Below are positions 9,301 to 24,200 of a stretch of 64,000 bases of DNA, in pieces. The stretch is taken from assembly GCF_036588685.1 (NCBI RefSeq), contig NC_086378.1, positions 29,016,001-29,080,000 on the forward strand, given 5' to 3'. Within the stretch, counting starts at the first letter, position 1, and each line of letters opens with the position of its first letter. Under the pieces are notes generated by a model. That model saw nothing but the letters and a program-made list of their open reading frames with translations. It searched no databases and was not told where the DNA came from. This stretch comes from Mytilus trossulus. Taxonomy: Eukaryota. The translations under genes were made by a program, and so were the position numbers.

Positions 9301-12300
9301 AAAAATGTTTTATTATAATCATTATCAAAGACTACAACTTCTTAAGATATTACGCTTATATATAAATGTATCTTGGACATACAAGCAAATTCAATTTTAA
9401 AATTGTCAATTTTTCAACAATTGGTGTTTTACTCATTTCTGCAAATATTATTTGACCAAATTAAAAGAAAAGAAATTAATCTATATCAGAATTTACATTA
9501 ACTGTAGTTGGACCAATTTATATGATTTCTGACCCTTATAACTTCATGGCTTAATACATGTTTACCATTATACAATTCCTGTTTAATTTACTATTAATCA
9601 AAATTGACTTTTGGGTCAAGAGTTTGTCTAGTACAATATAAGACAGAAATTCTTACTTAGATCTATTGAGATATAGCATCGATTCTACAAAGATATAGTT
9701 GTACTGAGTACAATATAATTGAAAAAAGATCATTTTACGAAAGCTCTAGGGATAGAAAAGACATCCTCACCCCACCCCCTTTTTTCCCAAATGCAAGTAT
9801 AAAATTGAAGTGCATATAATGATTAGATCTGTGCTGAGGTAAAGCACTGGAATGACATTTATAATCTTTCAGATAACTGACATAACTAGTGTGTGTAAAC
9901 AACAGAACTTTTACATTCAAATTTCTCTCAGACCCCAAAACATGCTGATAGTCTGCTTCTTTTTTGGGGCTTTATAACATGCCTGACACTGAAAAAGGTA
10001 GAATGTAAAAAATTGTAAATTTTCATGAGTTGGACATCCAAAAATAATCATTAAAATAGGCGATTTTAAAATATCTTCTAAATTAGGAAATAATTGATAT
10101 GTTTGTACAGAATGACCTTGAATGGGCGCATGTCAATCCCCATTAATTAATGTGAACAATTATTGTTATGTTTGACTGAACTATAATTGCCAAACTGGTA
10201 TTTTTTTTAAAGGAAAATTAAGTGTAGATAGCAGATGTGTTGCTCTCTGGAGCCTTTTGCTTTTTTGCTAATGGTTTTCTGTCTCATTTGACATACATAC
10301 CACACCTCCATTTATTCAAACTTGAAGTAACTTATATATTTTCTTCAAACAATTTCAACTTTCCACTTCCATTTTTTATTATTTTTTCATTGATTAATTT
10401 TGTCTTTGGAGATATTATCTGAATATATATATAAAGGAAAATACGGTTCCCTTTTTGCACCTGCTGATGCCGTGAAACATCAGCCAGATTTTAATTATTT
10501 AGCTGTACTAAATATCAATGGGTTTCCAAGCACCTGACTTTGAAACAAGAGAAGAACCTCACTTTTATCATTATCTATAATCCAGAACAAAAAGAATGTG
10601 ATATCCAGATATACTTAACAGATGAAATGATTAACTCATTAATGTTTCATGACTGATTTTGAATCATATATATAAAAATATCTGTATAAGACTTACTGCT
10701 GAACTGTACCTGTTTTTATAGTATCAGTTAACTGGTATATAGTTCATATCTATTAAATCTGTTTGACAAAGCAAAGATAGACTTAAAAGTAACTTGATAT
10801 TTGTGAAAATAGCGTAGCAAGAAAACATGTATATATATAAAGTATTCTTTACTAAACAATATTAAAAGAATGATTTTTTTATATCATTAAACTCATTTGT
10901 TGCAGGTTGTGATCGTGGTATTGGCAAAGCTTTAGCCAAATATTTAGATAAGGCAGGATTCAAAGTTTATGCTGGCTGTTTGGAAAATGAAGGGCAAGGA
11001 AAACAAGATCTAATGAATTCCTGTTCATCAAGACTTCAAACAATTCAACTTGATGTAAGCGATGAAAGTCAGATAAAAACAGCTGCAGCTTTAGTACAGA
11101 AAGAACTTGAAATATCAGGTAAATATAAGTTCAAAAGTTTTTACAGAATGACCTTGAAATGATAGGTTAATACATGTCAAAGGTGGAAAGGTTTGTAAAT
11201 AATGACCTTGAAATGTCAGGTTAATACATGTCAAAGGTGGAAAGGTTTGTAAATAATGACCTTGAAATGTCAGGTTAATACATGTCAAAGGTGGAAAGGT
11301 TTGTAAATAATGACCTTGAAATGTCAGATTAATACATGTCAAAGGTGGAAAGGTTTGTAAATAATGACCTTGAAATGTCAGATTAATACATGTCAAAGGT
11401 GGAAAGGTTTGTAAATAATGACCTTGAAATGTCGGGTTAATACATGTCAAAGGTGGAAAGGTTTGTAAATAATGACCTTGAAATGTCAGATTAATACATG
11501 TCAAAGGTGGAAAGGTTTGTAAATAATGACCTTGAAATGTCAGATTAATACATGTCCTTAGGTGTGTATAGAATGACCTTGAAATGTCTGTTAATAAATG
11601 TCCTTAGGTTTGTACAGAATGACCTTGAAATGTCAGGCAAATACATGTCCTTAGGTTTGTACAGAAAGACCATGAAATGTCAATTGAATACATGTCCTTT
11701 GGTATGTTCAGAATGACCTTGAAATGTAAGGTAAATACATGTCCTTATGTTTGTACAGATAAACCTTACATGTCCTAATGTTTGTACATAATGACCTTGA
11801 AATGTTAGGTAAATACATGTCCTAATGTTTGTACATAATGACCTTGAAATGTTAGGTAAATACATGTCCTATTGTTTGTACATAATGACCTTAAAAAGTT
11901 AACTAAATACATGTCCTTATGTTTGTACAGATAAACCTTACATGTCCTAAGGTTTTTACAGAAGGACCTTGAAATGTTAGGTAAATACATGTCCTAATGT
12001 TTGTACATAATGACCTTAAAGAGTTAACTAAATACATGTCCTTATATTTGTACAGAATGACCTTGAAATGTCAAGTAAAAACATGTCCTTGAGATTTACA
12101 CAGAACGACCTTGAAATGTAAGCTCAATACAATCAAATTCATTGTAAAATAAAACAAAGCCATTCTTGTTTCATTAAAATAATATTATCTTGCAGTTAAA
12201 AAAAACCAAACTGATCAATGTATATTTCAATTGTCAGTTAAAACATACATCATTTGAATGGAAAGATGATTTTGAATGAGTAAACGTAGATACAAAGATG

Positions 12301-15300
12301 AAAAAGATTCAATTTTTTTCCAATACAAAAATTTACTACTGATTCTTTAAATATTTTATATATCAAAGCAATAACTTCATACTGAATTGATAATATCAAG
12401 AAAGAAATTCCAAAATATATATCAGAATCATTTTTTTGTTTGTGAGGGTCATATATATCCATATTTATGTTTTTGTGCAGTTCTTACAGACTATTTTTGC
12501 TTTTACAACTGTAGACTTTTTATTGTACCAACATTTTTTAATCAAGAAACATAAGTAATTCATAATTTTAAGCGTTTATGAATTATTGATTTTTCAATGT
12601 GTAAGCATACATGTAGTCAAGTTTTTTGTAAATGTGGTTTATAAGTGATTAATATCTTATTTCATATATTTTAAGAAGGCCATATAAAAAGAATTTCCTG
12701 TTATATATTTATCATACCACTTATATTATATCAAATTTTACTTAAAAATCATTTTCAGGTGATTGATTTTTTAATACATTTACATCAATATAAGGTTTCC
12801 TGCATAATCTAAATCTGGGTTAAATTGTTGTCACGAGTTTACTCGTTTATCTACTAAATAAACGTAAATATTTATATCCTTTTACTTCTGTACAACATTA
12901 AAAACAAACTTAATCTTGAACTTGTGATAAATTTAAATAACATTGAAAGTTACAAAGTCAAAGTATTTATACTATTATCAAATTGTAAACTGCATAAAGG
13001 TTTCTAAACTACTTTATCTTGATGAACTTTAAGGTCATAACCTAAAAGTACTGTTTAAAATATGTTAACAAATTTGAAAATGTCTTTAATGCTTTAGTTC
13101 ATGAAGTTCTGACAAAAAACTTATATATATATTATAAAGGGCACTTTGCATGGAGGATGAATATAGAAAAAAAACAAGAATGTGTCCATAGTACACAGAT
13201 GCCCCACTCACACTATCATTTTCTATGTTCAGTGGACCGTGAACATTGGGGTCAAAACTTTAATTTGGAATAAAATTAGAAAAATCATATCATAGGGAAC
13301 ATGTGTACTAAGTTTCAAGTTGATGTAACTTTAACTTCATCAGAAACTACCTTGACCAAAAACTTTAACCTGAACTTCGCACTATCATTTTCTATGTTCA
13401 GTGGACCATGAAATTGGGGTAAAACTATAATTTGGCATCAAAATTGGAAAGATCATATCATGGGGAACATGCGTACTAAGTTTCAAGTTGATTTGACTTC
13501 AAATTCTTCAAAAAAAACCTTGAACAAAAACTTTCACCTGAAGCAAACGAACGCACAGACGGACAAACGGAGGCACAGACCAGAAAACATAATGCCCCTC
13601 TACTATTGTAGGTGGGGCATAAAAAATCATAAAATGACTTATTCAAGAGTGTTTTATTGTTGTTCTTCATGCTAACATTTGCTAGAGGTATTTACTGATG
13701 AGCAAAATGGCTAAATAGGTCATTGCTGTTCTTCATTTTAACATTTGCTAGAGACATTCACTGATGAACAAAATGGCTCACAACATACAGCAAAGCCAAG
13801 ACACCTACATATACCATTGACAACATAGATCTATGTTATCTGATATGCTTAAGTTTTAAGAAATATTCTTAAAGAGATGCAATGTTGTGCAATATGTATT
13901 TTTTACCTACAATTTTCTTTAATTATTCTATCAGGTATAAAGTTATAGGGTGTAATCATCAATGCTTGTATTTGTTTATTTTGACAGGAATGAAATTATG
14001 GGGTGTAATTAACAATGCTGGTATTTGTTTATTTTAACAGGTATGAAGTTATGGTGTGTAATAATCAATGCTGGTATTTGTTTATTTCTACAGTTATGAC
14101 GTTAAGGGGTGTTATTTACAATGCTGGTATTTGTTTATATTTACAGGTATGAAATAATAGGTTTTTTATACAATGTGTTTTTTTATCTATTTTGACAGTA
14201 TTTACAATGCTGGTATTTGTTTATATTTACAGGTATGAAATTATAGTTTTTTATACAATGTGTTTTTTTATCTATTTTGACAGGTATGAAGTTATGGGGT
14301 GTAATTAACAATGCTGGTATATGTTTTATTGGTAATGTTGAGATGATGGTAACAGAAGACATTCATAAAATATTAGCTGTGAATTACCTAGGACCAGTGA
14401 CTGTGTGTAAACACTTCCTACCTCTACTCAGAGAAAGTCAAGGCAGAATTGTCAATGTAGCAAGCAACTGTGGTAAGCATTGATTGATGGTGAAACACAA
14501 AAAAAAAAAAATCTGGCTATTTTCTATTATTTCACCAAGAGTTTTCACAAATGATGACAATAACTAAGATAAAAGTGCGGTCAGCCCAATTTTTTTTAAT
14601 TTGGTCAGAATTAAGGATTTTTTTTATGCCATGCAATTGGCTTTTTGACTGATTGATACAAACTACAATTTGGCAATTTGGTCAATGCTATATTTAATGT
14701 CAACACTTGCATTTTAATCTTAGTAATACATGTAATATATCACAGTTATTTAATATTTGATACAAGAAAGTGACTTAAGTTCATTTTTAACTTTACAAAA
14801 TTGTTTAAAAAATTCCTTTGGTGGTTGTTTTGCATTGCTATCAAATAATTTCATTGCATATTTTCGCCAACAAGAAAAACAAAACTGTCAATGTTTTACT
14901 TTTAGGCCTGGCACCTGTACCACTAATGGGACCATACTGTGCTTCTAAGTCGGCACTGGCTACGATGTCAGAAGTATGGAGATATGAATTCAAAATGTGG
15001 AAGATAAAAGTCTGTACTATCATTCCTAGTGGATATAAAACAGGTTAAATATAATTATTTCTTATGAAGCAAGAATCTTACAACTAGATATATGTAGGCT
15101 AATTATCAACCCAAGTTAGCTATAATCATATTAAATTTCTGTAATTTTATAGGGATTTGTGATATGGACTCATAAAGGAAAATTTTCCATGATCATGATG
15201 TTATGGAAAAATACAAACACTTAATTAAATAATATATAACTAACAGGTCTTTATTTAAAATACATTTATGGAAATGTGGTAAGATTACCAATGAGATAGC

Positions 15301-16552
15301 TATCCACTAGAGCTCAAATAAAGATGATGTAAAATGCATTGTTCTCTGCAATCTATAAACTGCGCAAATGATTAATTGGATAAAGTTCTGTTAATTCTTC
15401 AAAATAACCACATGCCCAGTAGCATGGCAGAACGAATTGTTTGTCTACAAATAAAAATTGGGTTAAGGTACATAAGGGATACTGAACTAGATATTTTTTT
15501 ATTAAGTATGAATTGAAGTATGAACAAAGATAGTCATTTATGATTCTCAAGTAATTCAATAAAAAACTGACAAATAGTATTGCAATTATAAAGAAATTCA
15601 ATGAATATAAATTAAAACTGCAAACAGGCAATGTAAGTTTGAGATCTACACAATCTCCTATGCCATTTTTTTTCATAAACATTTTTTTTTGAAATTTTTA
15701 GGTATTATGGCTTATGACAAGGCTGCAGTGGCAGAAAGGTGGTGGAAAGGGGCAAGTAAATCTGTCAAAGAAAATTACGGCAAAGACTGTTTTTACATTA
15801 AACATAAGCTTAAAGGTATATCTAATTCTTTTCCCATTTTCTCTATATAATTTTTTTTTAAATCACACTTTTATTTTCTTATTCATGTTATTCTAAATCA
15901 ATGTAAGAATGATATAAATTTCTGATACTTTTCCTTCAAATTAAAATTATAAATAAATATATCACAATAAGTCTCAGTACTGTTATCAACTTTCAATTGC
16001 ACTGACATTTTCTAAGCAATTTAAAATCTCAACTTGTTATTGTCAACATATAAACAATATTTGTTGGTCATGATGACTTTGAACATTGTTGTAGACAATG
16101 TCAGAACTAAGAAGATTGTTATGTCAAAGGAGAAAATGCTTGCAATCAAATTATAACTAAAATTGCATATTTCTTCAATTAATCAGTATCACAATATCAC
16201 TAAAAAACGTTAATTAAATGTTCCAGAATTTGAAACAGTAATTTGATCTACTAAATAAAGAAAAGGAAAACTGTAAAAAAAAAACTCAATAGTCATATTT
16301 TCATGTTTTCTCTTTTCAGATCCAGAAGCTTATCTGAACCCAGACTTCACTGAAATTTTAGACAACATAAAATTAGCACTATTGTCAGTCAGTCCAAAGT
16401 CTCATTATTACAGTGGATTACTTTCAAGGGCATTGCCGTTCCTCTACCTGCATCTACCATCCTGTATTGGAGACAGAGTCATGTCTATAATGGTAAACTG
16501 GTTTGACTTTGTACCAAAAGCTTTATCACCGCAGCCTAAATCATGTCACTGA
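6351..16552 (+). CDS. Membrane-anchored classical SDR, SDR9C-type (17beta-HSD2/11beta-HSD2/RDH/BDH1-like), ~402 aa; coding exons 6351-6672, 10906-11118, 14284-14472, 14906-15043, 15702-15815, 16320-16552
   Basis: All introns GT-AG and phase 1; frame open across every junction to TGA at 16550-16552. Motifs: hydrophobic N-terminus, IIITGCDRGIG (TGxxxGxG), LDV, LWGVINNAG, RIVNVAS, YCASK (YxxxK). Start ATG could be 6351 or a later in-frame Met. Confidence 0.93.
11146..12125. repeat. Intronic minisatellite: ~7 near-perfect 54-bp units followed by degenerate ~47-bp units sharing the core aatgaccttgaaatgt...aatacatgtc
   Basis: Unit aatgaccttgaaatgtcaggttaatacatgtcaaaggtggaaaggtttgtaaat repeats directly; it accounts for the repetitive ORFs 11115..11990. 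Confidence 0.95.
13172..13625 (-). mobile_element. Non-autonomous Helentron-type (HINE/pearl-like) element with two ~170-bp internal units; shorter relative at 17884-18140
   Basis: Subterminal IR atgccccac / gtggggcat, gacg/gaca microsatellite, duplicated actatcattttctatgttcagtggacc unit, A/T-run flanks. Confidence 0.7.
13925..14283 (+). repeat. Tandem array (~53 bp x7) of duplicated SDR intron-2/exon-3 junction
   Basis: CAG at 13932, 13985, 14038, 14091, 14144, 14196, 14230 and 14281, each followed by variants of gtatgaagttatggggtgtaattaacaatgctggtat. Confidence 0.9.
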
Positions 16553-18222: not shown

Positions 18223-21200
18223 ATTCAACCCCTGCCTGTCTTTTAACATGATCTACAAACTTGGTCCTCGATGAGAACAGTCCTCCACAGGTTGGACAAG
18301 CTATCACTTTCTCCTGTGTATGACTTCTTAGATGTTCACGTAGTTTATACTTATTTTTAGCAACAGTCTCACACCCTATAATGATAAGAATGAGTCAATC
18401 AGTTAGAAAGCCTACAATATTTCTATCGTAAATTGGTTTTACTAAAACTGCATATGTAATAATTAAGACGTCTAAACTGTATGAATTTGTATTGATGACT
18501 AAAGTACAAGATAACATCATAAGTACACAACGTTGGATATACAATAATGCCGCGTCACGTTAACGTTCTCTTCTGTGCATGATTTCCAACATTCTCCGGC
18601 CCACGAAAAGTGAAAATATAAAACTTGTAAAATAATTTAAAGTCTCTTTGTTAAAATATTAATATGAAATTGACTTTAAAGTCCATCATTAAAATTAAAA
18701 CTTTTACCACAGTTCTTATAGTACGGTGTCACATTTCGTTCAAGTTCTTTTTTCTGGTAAGTTTCTCCCTGTAATCCAATTCCTGGTATAATTTAAACTG
18801 TTTGAACTGAGATTTAGATTTTTCCATTCCTTGTAAATCATCGTAAAAGTGTGTGTGGTGGTTTGTGTCTCTTGTCCACATTAAAGCTGATTTGTTTGTT
18901 CCATTTTCTGTCAACAGACCATTGTTTCTTTGTTTTGTTCTTGAAGTGTCCACAATTGTTGAAATAAGTTCAGTGTTAATAGTATTCTCTGTTTTCTCCT
19001 CGGTAGTGTGTATCTCTTCTGTTACATTGATTGAACTGGTTCTTTTGAGTGGTCCTGAAAGTAGGTATCCTAGTTTGGACTTTACTGCTGTTGGTCCCTC
19101 CCCCCTAATAATATCATCCTCGAAAATATCCCAGTATTGGTCAGCTCCAACAAGCAGTCCAATTTCAAATGATGTATCCTCAGTTACGGCGTGTTCTAAT
19201 GTTAAGTTTTGCAAATACGGTAACTTTCTTGCAGTTTCAATGTAAGCCTTGAATGGTGCGGCGATTTTAGGTTCAATTAAGACATCTACTGAAATATGGT
19301 CGCCATGAATAGTTTGGGAAGACATCAAAAGTTCAATGAAGGATAAAAAACTTAATTCACATAGTTTTTTCACTGACCCCCACACCCCCCCCCCCCTCTT
19401 AACCTAATTTGGGAAAAATTGATTGACCAATAGGGATATATGTAAAATCGATTTTAGATTAACACAACTTGCAGCAATGTTGACCCCCCACCCCCAAACT
19501 ATTTGATTTAAGTTTCTTATCCTACATCGATCTTTTGATGTCGTCCCTTACTGTTGCTGTGTTTAGCTGTTCAATAGAGTTGTTCTCATTATCGTCTCCA
19601 AATCTAGATAGCATAATTGCTTCACTTCCTATGGGTTTTAACTCCAATTTCTCTCCTAAATGTCTTGTTATAAATGACCTTGTGGCGCCTTCGTCAAAAA
19701 GGATCTTTGCATCAGTCGTTTGTTTTCTGTAGCTTAGCGGTGCAATTGCGGTCTTTAACAAGACATTTGGGCAATCACGGTCTAGAGATGAATATAAAAC
19801 TGTTGTCTCAGCTTCCTCCGCGTTGTGTGTTCGTACTGTCAGGGTTGGCAAAGTATTACCCGCCCGGGAATTCCTACTTGTAGTTGCAGTTTCTTTATCA
19901 TAGTCGTTGTTGCATAGGCTTGTGTGGTGACGTCTATCACATTTCTTGCAGTTGGATATACAATAATGCCACGTTACGTTAACGTTCTCTTCTGTGTGTG
20001 ATTTCCAACAATTTCTAATATTGAGACTGAGAAAGATATGATATATATAATGCGGTTGTATTAATTATGACGTAAAAGAATAAAAGTGAAAGTGAAAATG
20101 TAAAATAGTGTTCATAATGTAGCAAGAATAAAAGTTAAGTTGCTAGTGGTAATATTGTAGAAATGATGGAAGTGGCTCATAAAATGTCAGTTCATTTCCA
20201 AATTGGACAACACCCCATTGGCCATCCCGTACCAATTCAACTGGCTTTGCTCCGAGGGAGGTACTGCTTCCATTGAATTAGTAAAAGGTGAAGTGTATGA
20301 TCGCCGCAATTCTTGGAATTGTAAATCTTGGTAGATATGTTCGAGGTATTGTAGGTGGTTCTGGCTGCGGATGAACAGTCAGAAGAATGACTAGACAGGT
20401 ACATGAGATACAACTAGAGGCTCTAAAGAGCTACACATGTTGCTGACCTTGGTCTTTATGAGTATATACATATTCAACAAAGGACACGCTTCAAAATCAT
20501 GAAAATTATAAACAGGAATAGAATTTATGCAAAAAAAATCTTTTTTTGTTGTTGTTGTTGATCCATTTGTCTGGCTAGTTTCTATTTATCTTCTTGAGCT
20601 TTTGCTCAAAACACAAAAGGGGGTAAAAAAATCCTCATTAACAGCAATCACTCCTATAATATATTGACACTCTACTAACTGTACTATCAGCAAAATTTAC
20701 TTGTTAGTAGATCTTGTCTTTTTTATCATTTTAGCTTATTTATTTAAGTTTCTATCTATTTGCAGATTTGAAGATCTTGTCTGGATAATCCTTTTTGCAT
20801 CTCTATCTAGCATGAATATAGAATACACAAAAAAATAAAAATAAAAAAAAAATAAAAATATAAAGAATTGTCATCAAAGGGCAATAACTCTAATTGGGAT
20901 TCAACTAACATTTTAACCAGGAAGAACTTGCCTTGCTGATATAGTTTTTGCAATTCCAATTTTCTCTCTTTCTATAATAGTTTCTTAAAATAAAAAGCAG
21001 AAACTTATCAAAGAAAAATGGTAAAACTTGGCATATAAAGGTGATAACTTCTATAAGAAATCAACTGACATTTTTGACATCATGAACAATTGGTAGAGCA
21101 TAGCATTCTAAACATCTAATAGTTATCAAAAGTACCAGGATTACAATTTTATACCCCAGACACGCGTTTCGTCTACATAAGACTCATCAGTGACGCTCAT

Positions 21201-24200
21201 ATCAAAAAAGTTAAAAAGCCAAATAAATACAAAGTTGAAGAGCATTGAGGACCCAAAATTCCAAAAAGTTGTGCCAAATACGGCTAAGGTAATCTACTCC
21301 TGGGGTAAGAAAATCCTTAGTTTTTCGAAAAATTCTCAGTTTTGTAAACAGAAAATTTATAAAAATGACCATATAATTGATATTCATGCCAACACCGAAG
21401 TGCTGACTACTGGGCTGGTGATACCCTCGGGGACGAAACGTCCACCAGCAGTGGCATCGACCCAGTGGTGTAAATAGTTATCAAAAGTACCAGGATTACA
21501 ATTTTATACGCCAGACGCGCGTTTCGTCTACATAAGACTCATCAGTGACGCTCATATCTAAGCCATGCCAATTTTTCTCTATATACATGTATGGCGATTA
21601 TCGACATTATAGTAGACAAAAGTGACATTCTACCACTATGATCAATTTTTAGCCATGTTGCTCATCTTGATCAGCAGGTGGGTCATGAAAAAAAGGTTTT
21701 AAAACTAGATACCCAAATTATGATTCTGGTCAAGTTTCAAAGTAGTTTCAGAGAAGATTTTTGTAACTTTAAAATAAACAGATGACAACAGACACAAAGT
21801 GATGAGAAAACCTCACTTGGTCTATTGGGCCAAATGAGCTAAAATTTAAAGTAATAGTAATATAGCGCATACTTTTAGAGTGGAGTATAATATATATAAT
21901 GTGTAATAATGTTTTGTAAAATGTAACCATTACCTTCCCATTCACACCTCGCTCCGTGTTCCAAATTATTTCCCTCAGGAAATGTCTCTGAATGGTTATC
22001 TACATGGCGGTAAAATATCTCTGGATTGTCAATTATCGTCTAAAATTAAATGTAGGAAAAATGAAAGTTGTATTTTAGTTCTACCCTTCTCATGGTAAAT
22101 ATAAGCAATTAATTTCATGTGAACTTCTCCCAGTGGGACTTTAGATTTGAATCTGAGTAGATAATTTTGTTTACAATAATATTGTGCCCTTTGCTAAATT
22201 GAAAATAATAACAAGAATATTCCTTTAAAAGATAATAAGGAGTTGTTGTTGCTGATCAGACTATATTTTTATGTGTGTGTATTTCTTGTATTTCTCCCTC
22301 AGGCAAAGTTGGCCTTAGATGGAATAGGCTATTTTCAAGGTCTTTTTTAGTTTATATTGCTCTTCAATTGTTTCAGTTATACTCATACTTGACTTTCAAA
22401 TATTTGGCAATGAGCGTTCTTGATGAAGGTAAGTAAATCAAGAAAAGCGCTTAGGATGCATACATTTATAACTGTTTTTATTTTGTACCTCACCTCACAC
22501 ATATTCCAGCCACACTGGAGTCTTTCTGGTAACTCTGGTATCAAGTTACGACTTTGATTCTCTAACAAACATCCCCTTAAACCCATCTTACGTATCATCT
22601 GCTCTCCTATATTCTTAATTTTGACATGAAAACAATGGAAGTAGGCATGACGAAGAAAATCTGTTCTACGTCCCTGGACCATTGTGTTACATTCTCTCCA
22701 CTCACATGGGAACTCTCCATCTGAAATATAAACAACAGTCTCCTATATCAAATATAAATGATACCATGCATATAAAGAAGGTTGGTACCTATTCATACAT
22801 TTAAATCTGTTGCATTTGTTAGCACTTGTATTAAGTCAGAAAGTTGATGTTCAGTACTTAATGTTTGTTGATGTGGTTCATAAGAGTTTCTTGTTTTTTT
22901 ATATAGATTAGACAGTTGGGGTTCTTGTTTGAATGGTTTTACACATGTCATTTTTGGGGCCATTAACAGCTTGCTGTTCGGTGTGAGCCAAGGGTCTGTT
23001 ATGAAGACATATTTTGACCTATAATTGTTTACTTTTACAAATTGTGACTTGGATGAGAGAGTTGTCTCATTAGAACTCATACCACATTTTCCTTTATATA
23101 CATATACCTAAAGGATCATCCAGAAGGCGCATATATATTACAAAGCACTAGACATATTCACATAAAAAAGAAACACGGCAATGCATAAAGCTTAAGTTTC
23201 ATTTTAATATGAGTGTCCTACAGAAAATATAATTATCTTAGAAAATGAGCCAAATGTTGACAATTTAAGGTAGTTCTGTTGTACAACAAACATCCCTTGT
23301 ATCTTTGACCATTTCCATCATATATTTTTGGTTTTAGAATTGACTTTAATCTATCATGTTAATTACTTATGTCATCAATATCATCTTGTCTCCATTTACT
23401 CTCTAAGATCAAGATATTTCTCAATATCAATTGTATCATCATGATCATGATGATAATGAGTCTAAATGGAGAGAATTCAAGCAACAATAAGTCACCATAC
23501 AGCCTTCAACAAAGAGAAAAATTCATACCATATAACTAGTGAACTACAAAAGCCCACGCATGACAAAAGGTGATACAAATAAAAACTAGAGGCTCTAAAG
23601 AGCCTGTGTCGCTCACCTTGGTCTATGTGAATATTAAACAAAGGACGCAGCTTGATTCATGACAAAATTGTGTTTTGGTGATGGTGATGTGTTTGTACAT
23701 CTTAATTTACTGAACATTCTAGCTGCTTACAATTATCTCTATCTATAATTAACTTGGCCCAGTAGTTTCAGAGGAGAAGATTTTTGTAAAACATTACTAA
23801 GTTTACGAAAAATGGTTAAAAATTGACTATAAAGGGCAATAACTCCTAAATGGGTCAACTGACCATTTCGGTCATATTGACTTATTTGTAACTCTTACTT
23901 TGCTGAACAATATTGCTGTCTACAGTTTATCTCTATCTATAATAATATTCAAGATAATAACCAAAAACAGCAAAATTTCCTTAAAATTACTAATTCAGGG
24001 GCAGCAACCCAACAATGAGTTGTCCGATTCATCTGAAAATTTCAGGGCAGATAGATCTTGACCTGATGCACAATTTAACACCATGTCAGATTTGCTCTAA
24101 ATGCTTTGGTTTTTGAGTTATAAGCCAAAAACTGCATTTTTCCCCTATGTTCTATTTTTAGCTGTGGCAGCCATCTTGGTTGGTTAGCAGTCACGAAAAA

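What the first reader, a model, noticed from the sequence alone, without database searches (positions are those of the whole stretch)
21118..21558. Retrozyme with two hammerheads 355 nt apart, sense to the HINFP pre-mRNA
Seen: two 86-bp direct repeats, each with a type I hammerhead on the minus strand (GUC sites at 21516-21514 and 21161-21159). The spacer is structured and includes an 8-bp cUUCGg hairpin (21388-21407, minus). Known: non-LTR retrozymes with such hammerheads yield small circRNAs in Mytilus and other metazoans, and palindromic stem III motifs work as dimers. Inference: HINFP is transcribed on minus through this intron, so its pre-mRNA could be cut twice, releasing a 355-nt monomer or circle and possibly affecting HINFP splicing.
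Basis: partly seen in the sequence, partly recalled or inferred. Interest (0 to 1): 0.7.

Follow-up and report, generated by a model that had tools for sequence, protein, structure and literature searches.

The report
Mussel retrozyme insertion in HINFP intron
This is a recent copy of a known mussel jumping element, one of thousands, with two hammerhead-ribozyme motifs (the second damaged) in an intron of the HINFP gene; it is likely a harmless passenger, and it shares a folded RNA segment with Naiad retrotransposons that likely marks where their enzyme starts copying it.

Summary
Two type I hammerhead motifs lie 355 nt apart on the minus strand, sense to HINFP, in its third coding intron. They belong to a 436-nt insertion flanked by a 6-bp target duplication; a related mussel has the empty site. 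The genome holds 13,545 exact copies of the ribozyme core, so this is an ordinary member of the published Mytilus retrozyme family. Its proposed circle markers fail: one lies outside the circle, the other is shared. The more interesting point is family-wide. The spacer's GC-rich stem-loop also opens intact Naiad retrotransposons (13 of 13 pairs kept, 3 by double changes), and both element types end about 5 nt before it. Naiad reverse transcriptase therefore likely copies retrozyme circles from that signal. This scan noted the Naiad link before on other DNA; I re-tested it and did not find it in the papers searched.

The parts
21120..21555 (-). Retrozyme insertion, 436 nt = one 355-nt unit plus an 81-nt repeat (1.23 units); 5'-truncated, 3' end at the family's usual position
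   Evidence: empty site in run X6 joins 21557 to 21114
21556..21561 (-). Target-site duplication TTAGAT, upstream copy
   Evidence: one copy at the empty site (record 26)
21114..21119 (-). Target-site duplication TTAGAT, downstream copy
21505..21556 (-). Hammerhead 1 (type I), identical to the family's commonest form; predicted cut after C21514; stem III of 2 pairs with a palindromic GCGC loop
   Evidence: Rfam 33.0 bits; 6,225 exact copies of its 46-nt core; predicted active fold -5.1 kcal/mol
21150..21201 (-). Hammerhead 2, damaged: loop C>U at 21162 and stem I C>G at 21155 (G·G mismatch); predicted cut after C21159
   Evidence: Rfam 24.8 bits with non-standard pair; predicted active fold -1.6 kcal/mol; the pair of changes is in 2 of 41 copies with the loop change
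21159..21513 (-). 355-nt monomer that double cleavage would release; 38.9% GC; no protein family match above cut-off; private marker G at 21337
21409..21466 (-). GC-rich stem-loop shared with the 5' start of Naiad retrotransposons; likely recognition/priming signal for the Naiad reverse transcriptase
   Evidence: z = -3.14 for 21470-21405; alignment score 41 versus null maximum 25 in 300 resamples; 13 of 13 pairs kept in 8 of 8 Naiad loci, 3 double and 3 single changes
21388..21407 (-). 8-bp cUUCGg hairpin
   Evidence: predicted pair probability 0.99; other copies have G>A at 21389, turning U·G into U-A; the UUCG loop is not kept in most of the older subfamily
18375..21932 (-). Host intron: third coding intron of HINFP, 3,558 nt, GT..AG; cut site 1 is 419 nt from the donor and 3,139 nt from the acceptor
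   Evidence: spliced RNA contig
21933..22039 (-). HINFP coding exon 3
   Evidence: tblastn with P0001; RNA contig X17 record 11
18223..18374 (-). HINFP coding exon 4 (zinc fingers)

Best explanation
This is a recent 436-nt insertion of the mussel's high-copy 355-nt retrozyme into HINFP intron 3, likely copied from an RNA circle by a Naiad reverse transcriptase and likely a near-neutral passenger for the gene. Shown: the insertion, its 6-bp target duplication, an empty site in a related mussel, the copy number, the damage in hammerhead 2, the stem-loop shared with Naiads, and the matching 3' end points. Inferred: Naiad endonuclease nicked AT-rich DNA; its reverse transcriptase bound the stem-loop on a retrozyme circle, began about 6-8 nt before it, ran 1.23 turns and stopped; the two 81-nt repeats were then identical and hammerhead 2 has since mutated at two CpG sites. 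Predicted for the pre-mRNA: hammerhead 1 cuts a minority of transcripts before splicing (10-26% in 1-3 min at the published in-vitro rate, less if slower in the cell), hammerhead 2 cuts less often, the intron is still spliced, and this locus adds next to nothing to the circle pool.
For: 13,545 exact core copies, 0 in the reversed control. Nearest monomers differ by 3-5 of 355 nt. TSD TTAGAT and an empty-site contig with 454 and 240 nt on the two sides (X6 record 26). 30 of 40 non-redundant, non-edge retrozyme blocks (this one included) end 39-47 nt past the cut site with scattered 5' ends; a cleaved linear monomer would end at the cut site, so the template was a circle or an uncut multimer. 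The stem starts at +48. Intact Naiads (N-terminal GIY-YIG, CxC, DKA, YIDD; 1,056-codon frame) carry the homologous stem-loop at their start, and 6 of 6 Naiad copies with a visible 3' end stop 4-6 nt before it. Changes at the 21155 position are scattered single copies, mostly C>T (163 in all versus at least 6,225 with C), as expected for decay after insertion. HINFP is intact and single-copy, 8 coding exons. RNA contig X19 record 17 joins exon 4 to exon 2 with exactly the 107 nt of exon 3 between. RNA contigs over the element carry other letters at 21336 and 21389 in 97-100% of depth in 4 of 4 runs, so they come from other copies.
Against: No cleavage, RNA end, circle or expression level was measured; only contigs were available. 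The RNA runs are not known to come from carriers of the insertion: X19 is a gut metatranscriptome with 12 other letters in exon 2, and for X17 the 42 nt beyond exon 3 were not placed in the listing. The X1 contigs that suggest a second filled haplotype reach only 21-22 nt into the element, under the tool's 31-letter rule, and X1 may be the assembly's own sample. Three intact stem I pairs remain next to the core of hammerhead 2 and the cross stem III still forms (-11.4 versus -13.3 kcal/mol), so it may still cut. In Xenopus, retrozymes are depleted from introns (44% intronic; bioRxiv 10.64898/2026.07.22.740005), which implies some cost. The Naiad link is sequence evidence only; Naiads are reported to prefer (TA)n targets (PMC8557442) and this site is not a microsatellite. 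Identity to the published Mg353 sequence could not be checked because the supplement was unreadable.
Confidence: 0.78

Rival explanations
1. One reading: HINFP pre-mRNA is cut at both sites often enough to release 355-nt circles from this locus and to lower HINFP splicing measurably, as a mildly harmful or modulating allele.
For: Sense orientation; hammerhead 1 is the family's commonest form; 3.1 kb of intron follows cut site 1; the palindromic loops can still cross-pair; the CPEB3 intronic ribozyme (half-life 2-3 min, 9.9 kb to the next exon) affects splicing (PMC10919898 passages); a mussel dimer gave monomers that RtcB circularised (PMC7229834).
Against: G·G mismatch in hammerhead 2; published rate about 0.1/min, i.e. 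a half-life near 7 min in vitro; slow hammerheads did not block splicing (second-hand for Fong 2009 and Dye 2006); predicted stem I probability at most 0.002 in context (true of the family consensus too, so weak); spliced contigs exist and RNA contigs bear other copies' letters.
Confidence: 0.12
2. The retrozyme is mobilised by, or derived from, a canonical hammerhead-bearing Penelope-like element (C-terminal endonuclease) rather than a Naiad.
For: Xenopus retrozymes are related to pLTRs of such elements (bioRxiv 10.64898/2026.07.22.740005, abstract and passages). One such element with a minimal hammerhead-like motif lies about 1 kb upstream of the 39-kb array on C1, same strand, and a retrozyme copy lies about 1.1 kb 3' of a related element in L135.
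Against: In 15 GIY-YIG loci that are not Naiad-type the stem-loop motif was found once, inside that separate retrozyme copy; otherwise the monomer matched them only over 18 nt at E 0.12. The C1 element is separated from the array by (TA)n runs and unrelated sequence. Retrozyme copies lay in 4 of 30 GIY-YIG loci, so adjacency is common.
Confidence: 0.12
3. The element has been domesticated as a conserved regulatory switch of HINFP.
For: Sense orientation in a conserved single-copy gene; conserved intronic ribozymes exist in vertebrates (PMC7761336 passage).
Against: Empty site in a related mussel; 98-99% identity to dispersed copies; 3 changes peculiar to this copy in 436 nt, 2 of them in a ribozyme; the same intron also holds retrotransposon debris.
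Confidence: 0.02

Closest known systems
Non-LTR retrozyme of Mytilus galloprovincialis (Cervera and de la Pena 2020, PMC7229834; read parts 2-4 of 6 of the main text; supplement not readable)
   Same: Type I hammerhead in each 350-390-bp unit, GC under 50%, TSD longer than 4 bp, thousands of copies, dispersed and tandem, no protein. Published for the family: self-cleavage about 0.1/min, abundant circles, RtcB ligation.
   Different: This genome has at least 13,545 cores versus about 5,000 reported, and arrays of about 110 and over 230 units versus up to 62 reported for coral. This copy's second hammerhead is damaged. The paper names Penelope-like elements only as candidates; the parts read give no shared signal or priming point.
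Naiad Penelope-like retrotransposons (Craig et al. 2021, PMC8557442; read section 6 and passages)
   Same: Shared 5' stem-loop, same 3' end point relative to it, 5' truncation and partial-tandem structure.
   Different: Naiads encode endonuclease and reverse transcriptase and lack canonical hammerheads (none in the L144 unit); their stem-loop has an extra 23-nt hairpin; the retrozyme is non-coding.
Vertebrate non-LTR retrozymes as pLTR derivatives of Penelope-like elements (Li, Clavereau, Pollet, bioRxiv 10.64898/2026.07.22.740005; read part 1 of 5 and passages)
   Same: Non-autonomous, tied to Penelope-like elements, often intronic (42-44% in two Xenopus species).
   Different: The words Mytilus and mussel do not occur in the text; Naiads were found there only in coral. 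Here the partner appears to be a hammerhead-free Naiad.
Intronic self-cleaving ribozymes that affect splicing (CPEB3 HDV-like, PMC10919898 passages; amniote intronic hammerheads, PMC7761336 passage)
   Same: Self-cleaving motif on the sense strand of an intron.
   Different: Those are conserved and, for CPEB3, faster (half-life 2-3 min). This is a young, lineage-restricted, decaying repeat copy.

Membership tests
Type I hammerhead ribozyme | Core CUGANGA and GAAA, NUH triplet, stems I-III with stem I open | tested here: met
   Both motifs; Rfam RF00163 33.0 and 24.8 bits, under the gathering score of 34; hammerhead 2 has one G·G pair in stem I
Type I hammerhead ribozyme | Self-cleavage at the NUH site | not testable with these tools
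   Published for a family member; not measured for this copy
Metazoan non-LTR retrozyme (Mytilus family) | Short head-to-tail unit (350-390 bp in mussel) with one hammerhead per unit | tested here: met
   355-nt period; 194 of 224 sampled monomers are 355 nt
Metazoan non-LTR retrozyme (Mytilus family) | Many genomic copies, dispersed and in tandem arrays | tested here: met
   13,545 core copies; arrays on C1 and C8
Metazoan non-LTR retrozyme (Mytilus family) | TSD longer than 4 bp; GC under 50%; no protein | tested here: met
   6-bp TSD confirmed by an empty site; GC 0.389; 0 of 3 frames pass a Pfam cut-off
Metazoan non-LTR retrozyme (Mytilus family) | Sequence identity with the published Mg353 unit and mussel hammerhead families | not testable with these tools
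   Supplement too large to read; assignment rests on size, ribozyme type and a Mytilus-like host gene
Metazoan non-LTR retrozyme (Mytilus family) | Expressed as monomeric linear and circular RNA | tested here: inconclusive
   RNA contigs cover the unit in 4 of 4 runs but bear other copies' letters and cannot show ends or circles
Non-autonomous partner of Naiad elements | Shares a conserved cis-signal with the autonomous element | tested here: met
   Stem-loop kept with 3 double and 3 single changes, 13 of 13 pairs, 8 of 8 loci of two Naiad subfamilies; 0 of 300 resamples reach the alignment score
Non-autonomous partner of Naiad elements | Insertions end at the same place relative to that signal | tested here: met
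   Naiad 6 of 6 ends 4-6 nt before the stem; retrozyme 30 of 40 blocks end at +39 to +47, stem at +48
Non-autonomous partner of Naiad elements | Naiad reverse transcriptase copies the RNA | not testable with these tools
   Needs an in-vitro priming or cell retrotransposition assay
Domesticated intronic regulatory ribozyme | Conserved at the orthologous position across species | tested here: not met
   Empty site in organism C (X6 record 26)
Domesticated intronic regulatory ribozyme | Changes host mRNA level or splicing | not testable with these tools
   Only contigs were available

The most novel reading that the evidence does not exclude
Mussel retrozymes are parasites of hammerhead-free Naiad retrotransposons: a stem-loop taken from the Naiad 5' end recruits Naiad reverse transcriptase and fixes the start of copying about 5 nt before it, so that both the retrozyme circle and the Naiad's own RNA are copied as circles or head-to-tail multimers from one internal signal. 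This names the missing helper enzyme and gives a 58-nt signal that can be mutated and tested.
Probability: 0.7. Interest if true: 0.62.

Novelty: new member of a known kind. Interest (0 to 1): 0.38.

Why it matters
The locus itself matters little: it is one of thousands of copies, and 42-44% of retrozymes in two frogs are intronic too. It is a clean natural test case, because filled and empty alleles of one intron in a single-copy gene exist among related mussels and G21337 tags RNA from this copy, so one can ask how much a slow intronic hammerhead costs its host gene. The family-level result matters more. Which enzyme copies animal retrozymes, and how a circle with no 3' end is primed, is left open in the papers read. 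A stem-loop shared with Naiads, kept by compensatory changes and placed just past the common end point of both elements, makes that question directly testable.

Tried and rejected
Chance or tandem-duplication artefact: rejected. C26:1,853,115, the only other copy with both hammerhead 2 changes, as an allelic haplotig: rejected, its flanks do not match the window. Rfam at gathering thresholds: 0 hits; hits appear at E-value thresholds. Search for Naiad starts through a loop variant of the stem-loop: 118 matches; 0 of 30 fetched loci had a sense frame over 140 codons downstream, and most were an older retrozyme subfamily. Second-subfamily tail motif: 6 matches, no autonomous partner; the long frame beside L064 is antisense and was not identified. 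Canonical Penelope-like element beside the C1 array as co-insertion: not supported, other sequence lies between. Runs X2 and X4 (organism B) gave no listed contig across either junction, so nothing is concluded from them; all four DNA runs were swamped by repeat contigs. No raw-read runs were offered, so RNA ends, strand, level and back-junctions could not be seen. The first pair count on the Naiad stem was off by one base and is discarded; one search replaces it. The automatic alignments misplaced the Naiad stem and were not used for counts. Thermodynamic folding puts both hammerheads in an alternative hairpin; not used against activity, since the family is published to cleave. Fong et al. 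2009 was not held; it and Dye et al. 2006 are cited second-hand. No primary paper on stem I mismatches was found; a review passage says mismatches near the core impair cleavage, at least 500-fold at the first pair, and gives no figure for the fourth pair. Not-in-print searches: retrozyme+Mytilus+hammerhead (5 papers), Mytilus+Penelope+hammerhead+intron, retrozyme+Naiad (2 listed), retrozymes+Penelope+non-LTR from 2021 (8 listed); no passage seen reports the shared stem-loop or this locus. Subscription papers and the unread supplements could hold it. A search on HINFP dosage gave nothing used.
Full report
OBSERVATION. The repeat is real: 21118-21206 and 21473-21561, 89 nt, 97% identical, 355 apart. 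On the minus strand each copy reads stem I (GCGUCA), CUGAUGA, a 4-bp stem II, GAAA, a 2-bp stem III with a 4-nt loop, GUC, and the 3' strand of stem I. Rfam's type I hammerhead model matches both, at 33.0 bits (E 2.2e-6) and 24.8 bits (E 1.1e-3), under its gathering score of 34. A full descriptor finds these 2 sites in the window and none in 100 resamples. The cUUCGg hairpin is predicted at probability 0.99. Only the 5' GC-rich part of the spacer folds better than shuffles (z = -3.79); the rest does not (z = +0.50; whole monomer z = -0.82).

HOST GENE. Exon 2 is 99% identical to a protein named histone H4 transcription factor-like in Mytilus trossulus. That protein maps to 8 coding exons on the minus strand, 4 in the window and 4 beyond its start, as one full-length locus. 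The element is in the third coding intron (21932-18375, 3,558 nt, GT..AG), 419 nt from the donor to cut site 1 and 3,139 nt from there to the acceptor. So the orientation claim is right.

WHAT THE ELEMENT IS. The genome has 13,545 exact copies of the 27-nt core and 6,225 of the 46-nt form of hammerhead 1, with 0 in reversed controls. The nearest monomers differ from this one by 3-5 of 355 nt. The insertion is 21555-21120 (436 nt), flanked by TTAGAT on both sides. A 731-nt contig from DNA run X6 (organism C) runs from 22010 to 21557 and goes on at 21114, which leaves one TTAGAT: the empty site. Run X1 (organism A) has contigs entering the element from both flanks, but by only 21-22 nt, below the tool's bridging rule, and X1 may be the assembly's own sample. 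Runs X2 and X4 were uninformative. Size, ribozyme type, GC (0.389), TSD and copy number match the Mytilus non-LTR retrozyme of Cervera and de la Pena (PMC7229834, parts 2-4 read): 350-390-bp units, about 5,000 motifs, cleavage about 0.1/min, abundant circles. I could not compare sequences with that paper's supplement.

DAMAGE TO HAMMERHEAD 2. The two 81-nt repeats differ at 2 positions, both CpG sites in the family form: 21162 (loop GCGC to GCGU) and 21155 (stem I C to G). The second makes a G·G mismatch at the fourth pair from the core; the predicted active fold goes from -5.1 to -1.6 kcal/mol. The loop change is in 41 copies; both together are in 2 of those 41, the other at an unrelated locus. 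Non-C letters at the 21155 position occur in 163 copies, scattered and mostly C>T, which looks like decay after insertion (inference). In a double hammerhead the loops can still cross-pair (-11.4 versus -13.3 kcal/mol), but the mismatched strand is the one cut at site 2 either way. Three pairs remain next to the core, so 'weakened' is safer than 'dead'; I found no primary figure for a mismatch at this position.

EFFECT ON HINFP. At 0.1/min, 10% of transcripts would be cut at site 1 in 1 min, 26% in 3 min and 63% in 10 min; at 0.01/min, 1-10% (arithmetic on a published in-vitro rate, not a measurement). Passages in PMC2995048 and PMC10919898 report that introns cut by a slow hammerhead were spliced normally and that only fast ribozymes blocked splicing (the primary papers were not read). 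RNA contig X19 record 17 carries exon 4, 107 unlisted nt equal in length to exon 3, exon 2 and exon 1 in order; X17 record 11 joins exons 3, 2 and 1 and has 42 more nt not placed in the listing. Neither animal is known to carry the insertion. RNA contigs over the element bear other letters at 21336 and 21389 in 97-100% of depth in 4 of 4 runs, so they reflect other copies. Against my reading: retrozymes are depleted from Xenopus introns, though 42-44% lie there, and CPEB3 shows that an intronic ribozyme can matter. G21337 is the better tag (0 of 104 other distinct monomers; the sample leans to near copies and arrays).

HOW IT WAS COPIED. Of 40 retrozyme blocks in fetched loci (3 edge blocks and 3 duplicates dropped), 30 end 39-47 nt past the cut site with scattered 5' ends and mostly short AT-rich duplications; 10 end elsewhere. 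A cleaved linear monomer ends at the cut site, so the template was a circle or uncut multimer primed at a fixed internal point (inference). Earlier notes of this scan pointed to Naiad retrotransposons, and I tested that lead. A GIY-YIG search returned elements with an N-terminal endonuclease, CxC, DKA and YIDD motifs and a 1,056-codon frame, the Naiad marks given in PMC8557442. Their start holds a stem-loop homologous to 21466-21409: alignment score 41 against a null maximum of 25 in 300 resamples; 13 of 13 pairs kept in 8 of 8 fetched loci, with 3 double and 3 single changes relative to the retrozyme (the loci are closely related, so this is one comparison, not eight); both fold better than shuffles. 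The motif was upstream of the endonuclease in 6 of 14 Naiad loci (plus one fragment) and in 1 of 15 other loci, there inside a separate retrozyme copy. Six of 6 Naiad copies with a visible 3' end stop 4-6 nt before the stem; the retrozyme stem starts at +48, about 5 nt after the mean end of +42.7. This copy ends at +39 to +41. The simplest reading is that Naiad reverse transcriptase binds the stem-loop and primes just before it. This is inferred, not shown. A canonical Penelope-like partner remains possible.

COMPARISON AND NOVELTY. As an element it meets the tested features of the Mytilus non-LTR retrozyme and fails the conservation test for a domesticated intronic ribozyme. The HINFP location adds no evidence of function. 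The Naiad signal was not in the passages returned by four literature searches or in the parts of papers read, but this scan has noted it before at other loci of the same genome.

VERDICT. Observation confirmed; interpretation partly supported. Recent passenger insertion of a known retrozyme, likely Naiad-mobilised: 0.78. Measurable effect on HINFP with circles from this locus: 0.12. Domesticated switch: 0.02. Interest 0.38, carried mostly by the family-level Naiad link.

Noticed in passing
G000:C8:46,690,000-46,772,091 (L076, L053, L074, L072, L073, L054, L077): Head-to-tail array of the same 355-nt unit over at least 82 kb (over 230 units); all fetched stretches inside it were filled with units, the parts between were only partly covered by listed matches, and the lower end was not reached.
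   Followed up: partly
G000:C1:269,252-308,534 (L070, L052, L071): 39-kb array (about 110 units) with the family's usual 3' end at +43; about 1 kb upstream on the same strand lies a 5'-truncated canonical Penelope-like element (RT plus C-terminal GIY-YIG, minimal hammerhead-like motif) with an inverted copy.
   Followed up: partly
L140:6644-6682 and L118/L119/L123:541-578: One Naiad subfamily carries a 34-nt match to the retrozyme's last bases (+8 to +41) in its 3' untranslated part, ending at the retrozyme's usual 3' end; either a retrozyme fragment that landed in a Naiad or a second shared piece.
   Followed up: partly
G000:C1:161,300-165,100 (L068): About 1,055-bp tandem units made of a retrozyme piece preceded by TTAGGG-like repeats, near the contig start.
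   Followed up: no
window 10903-16552, plus strand: A short-chain dehydrogenase gene nested antisense in HINFP's 20-kb fourth coding intron; one RNA contig joins four of its exons.
   Followed up: partly
window 18729-20430, minus strand: Broken LTR-retrotransposon fragment (aspartyl protease and DUF1758-like hits below cut-off) in the same intron as the retrozyme; RNA contigs cover 20136-20342 in 3 of 4 runs.
   Followed up: no
L080-L109, L062-L067: An older, more diverged retrozyme subfamily with a different stem-loop loop and tail and mostly no UUCG loop; many copies lack an intact hammerhead core.
   Followed up: partly
G000, many contigs: Numerous Naiad copies with an intact 1,056-codon frame, some in full head-to-tail tandem (L141, L142), suggesting recent activity.
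   Followed up: partly
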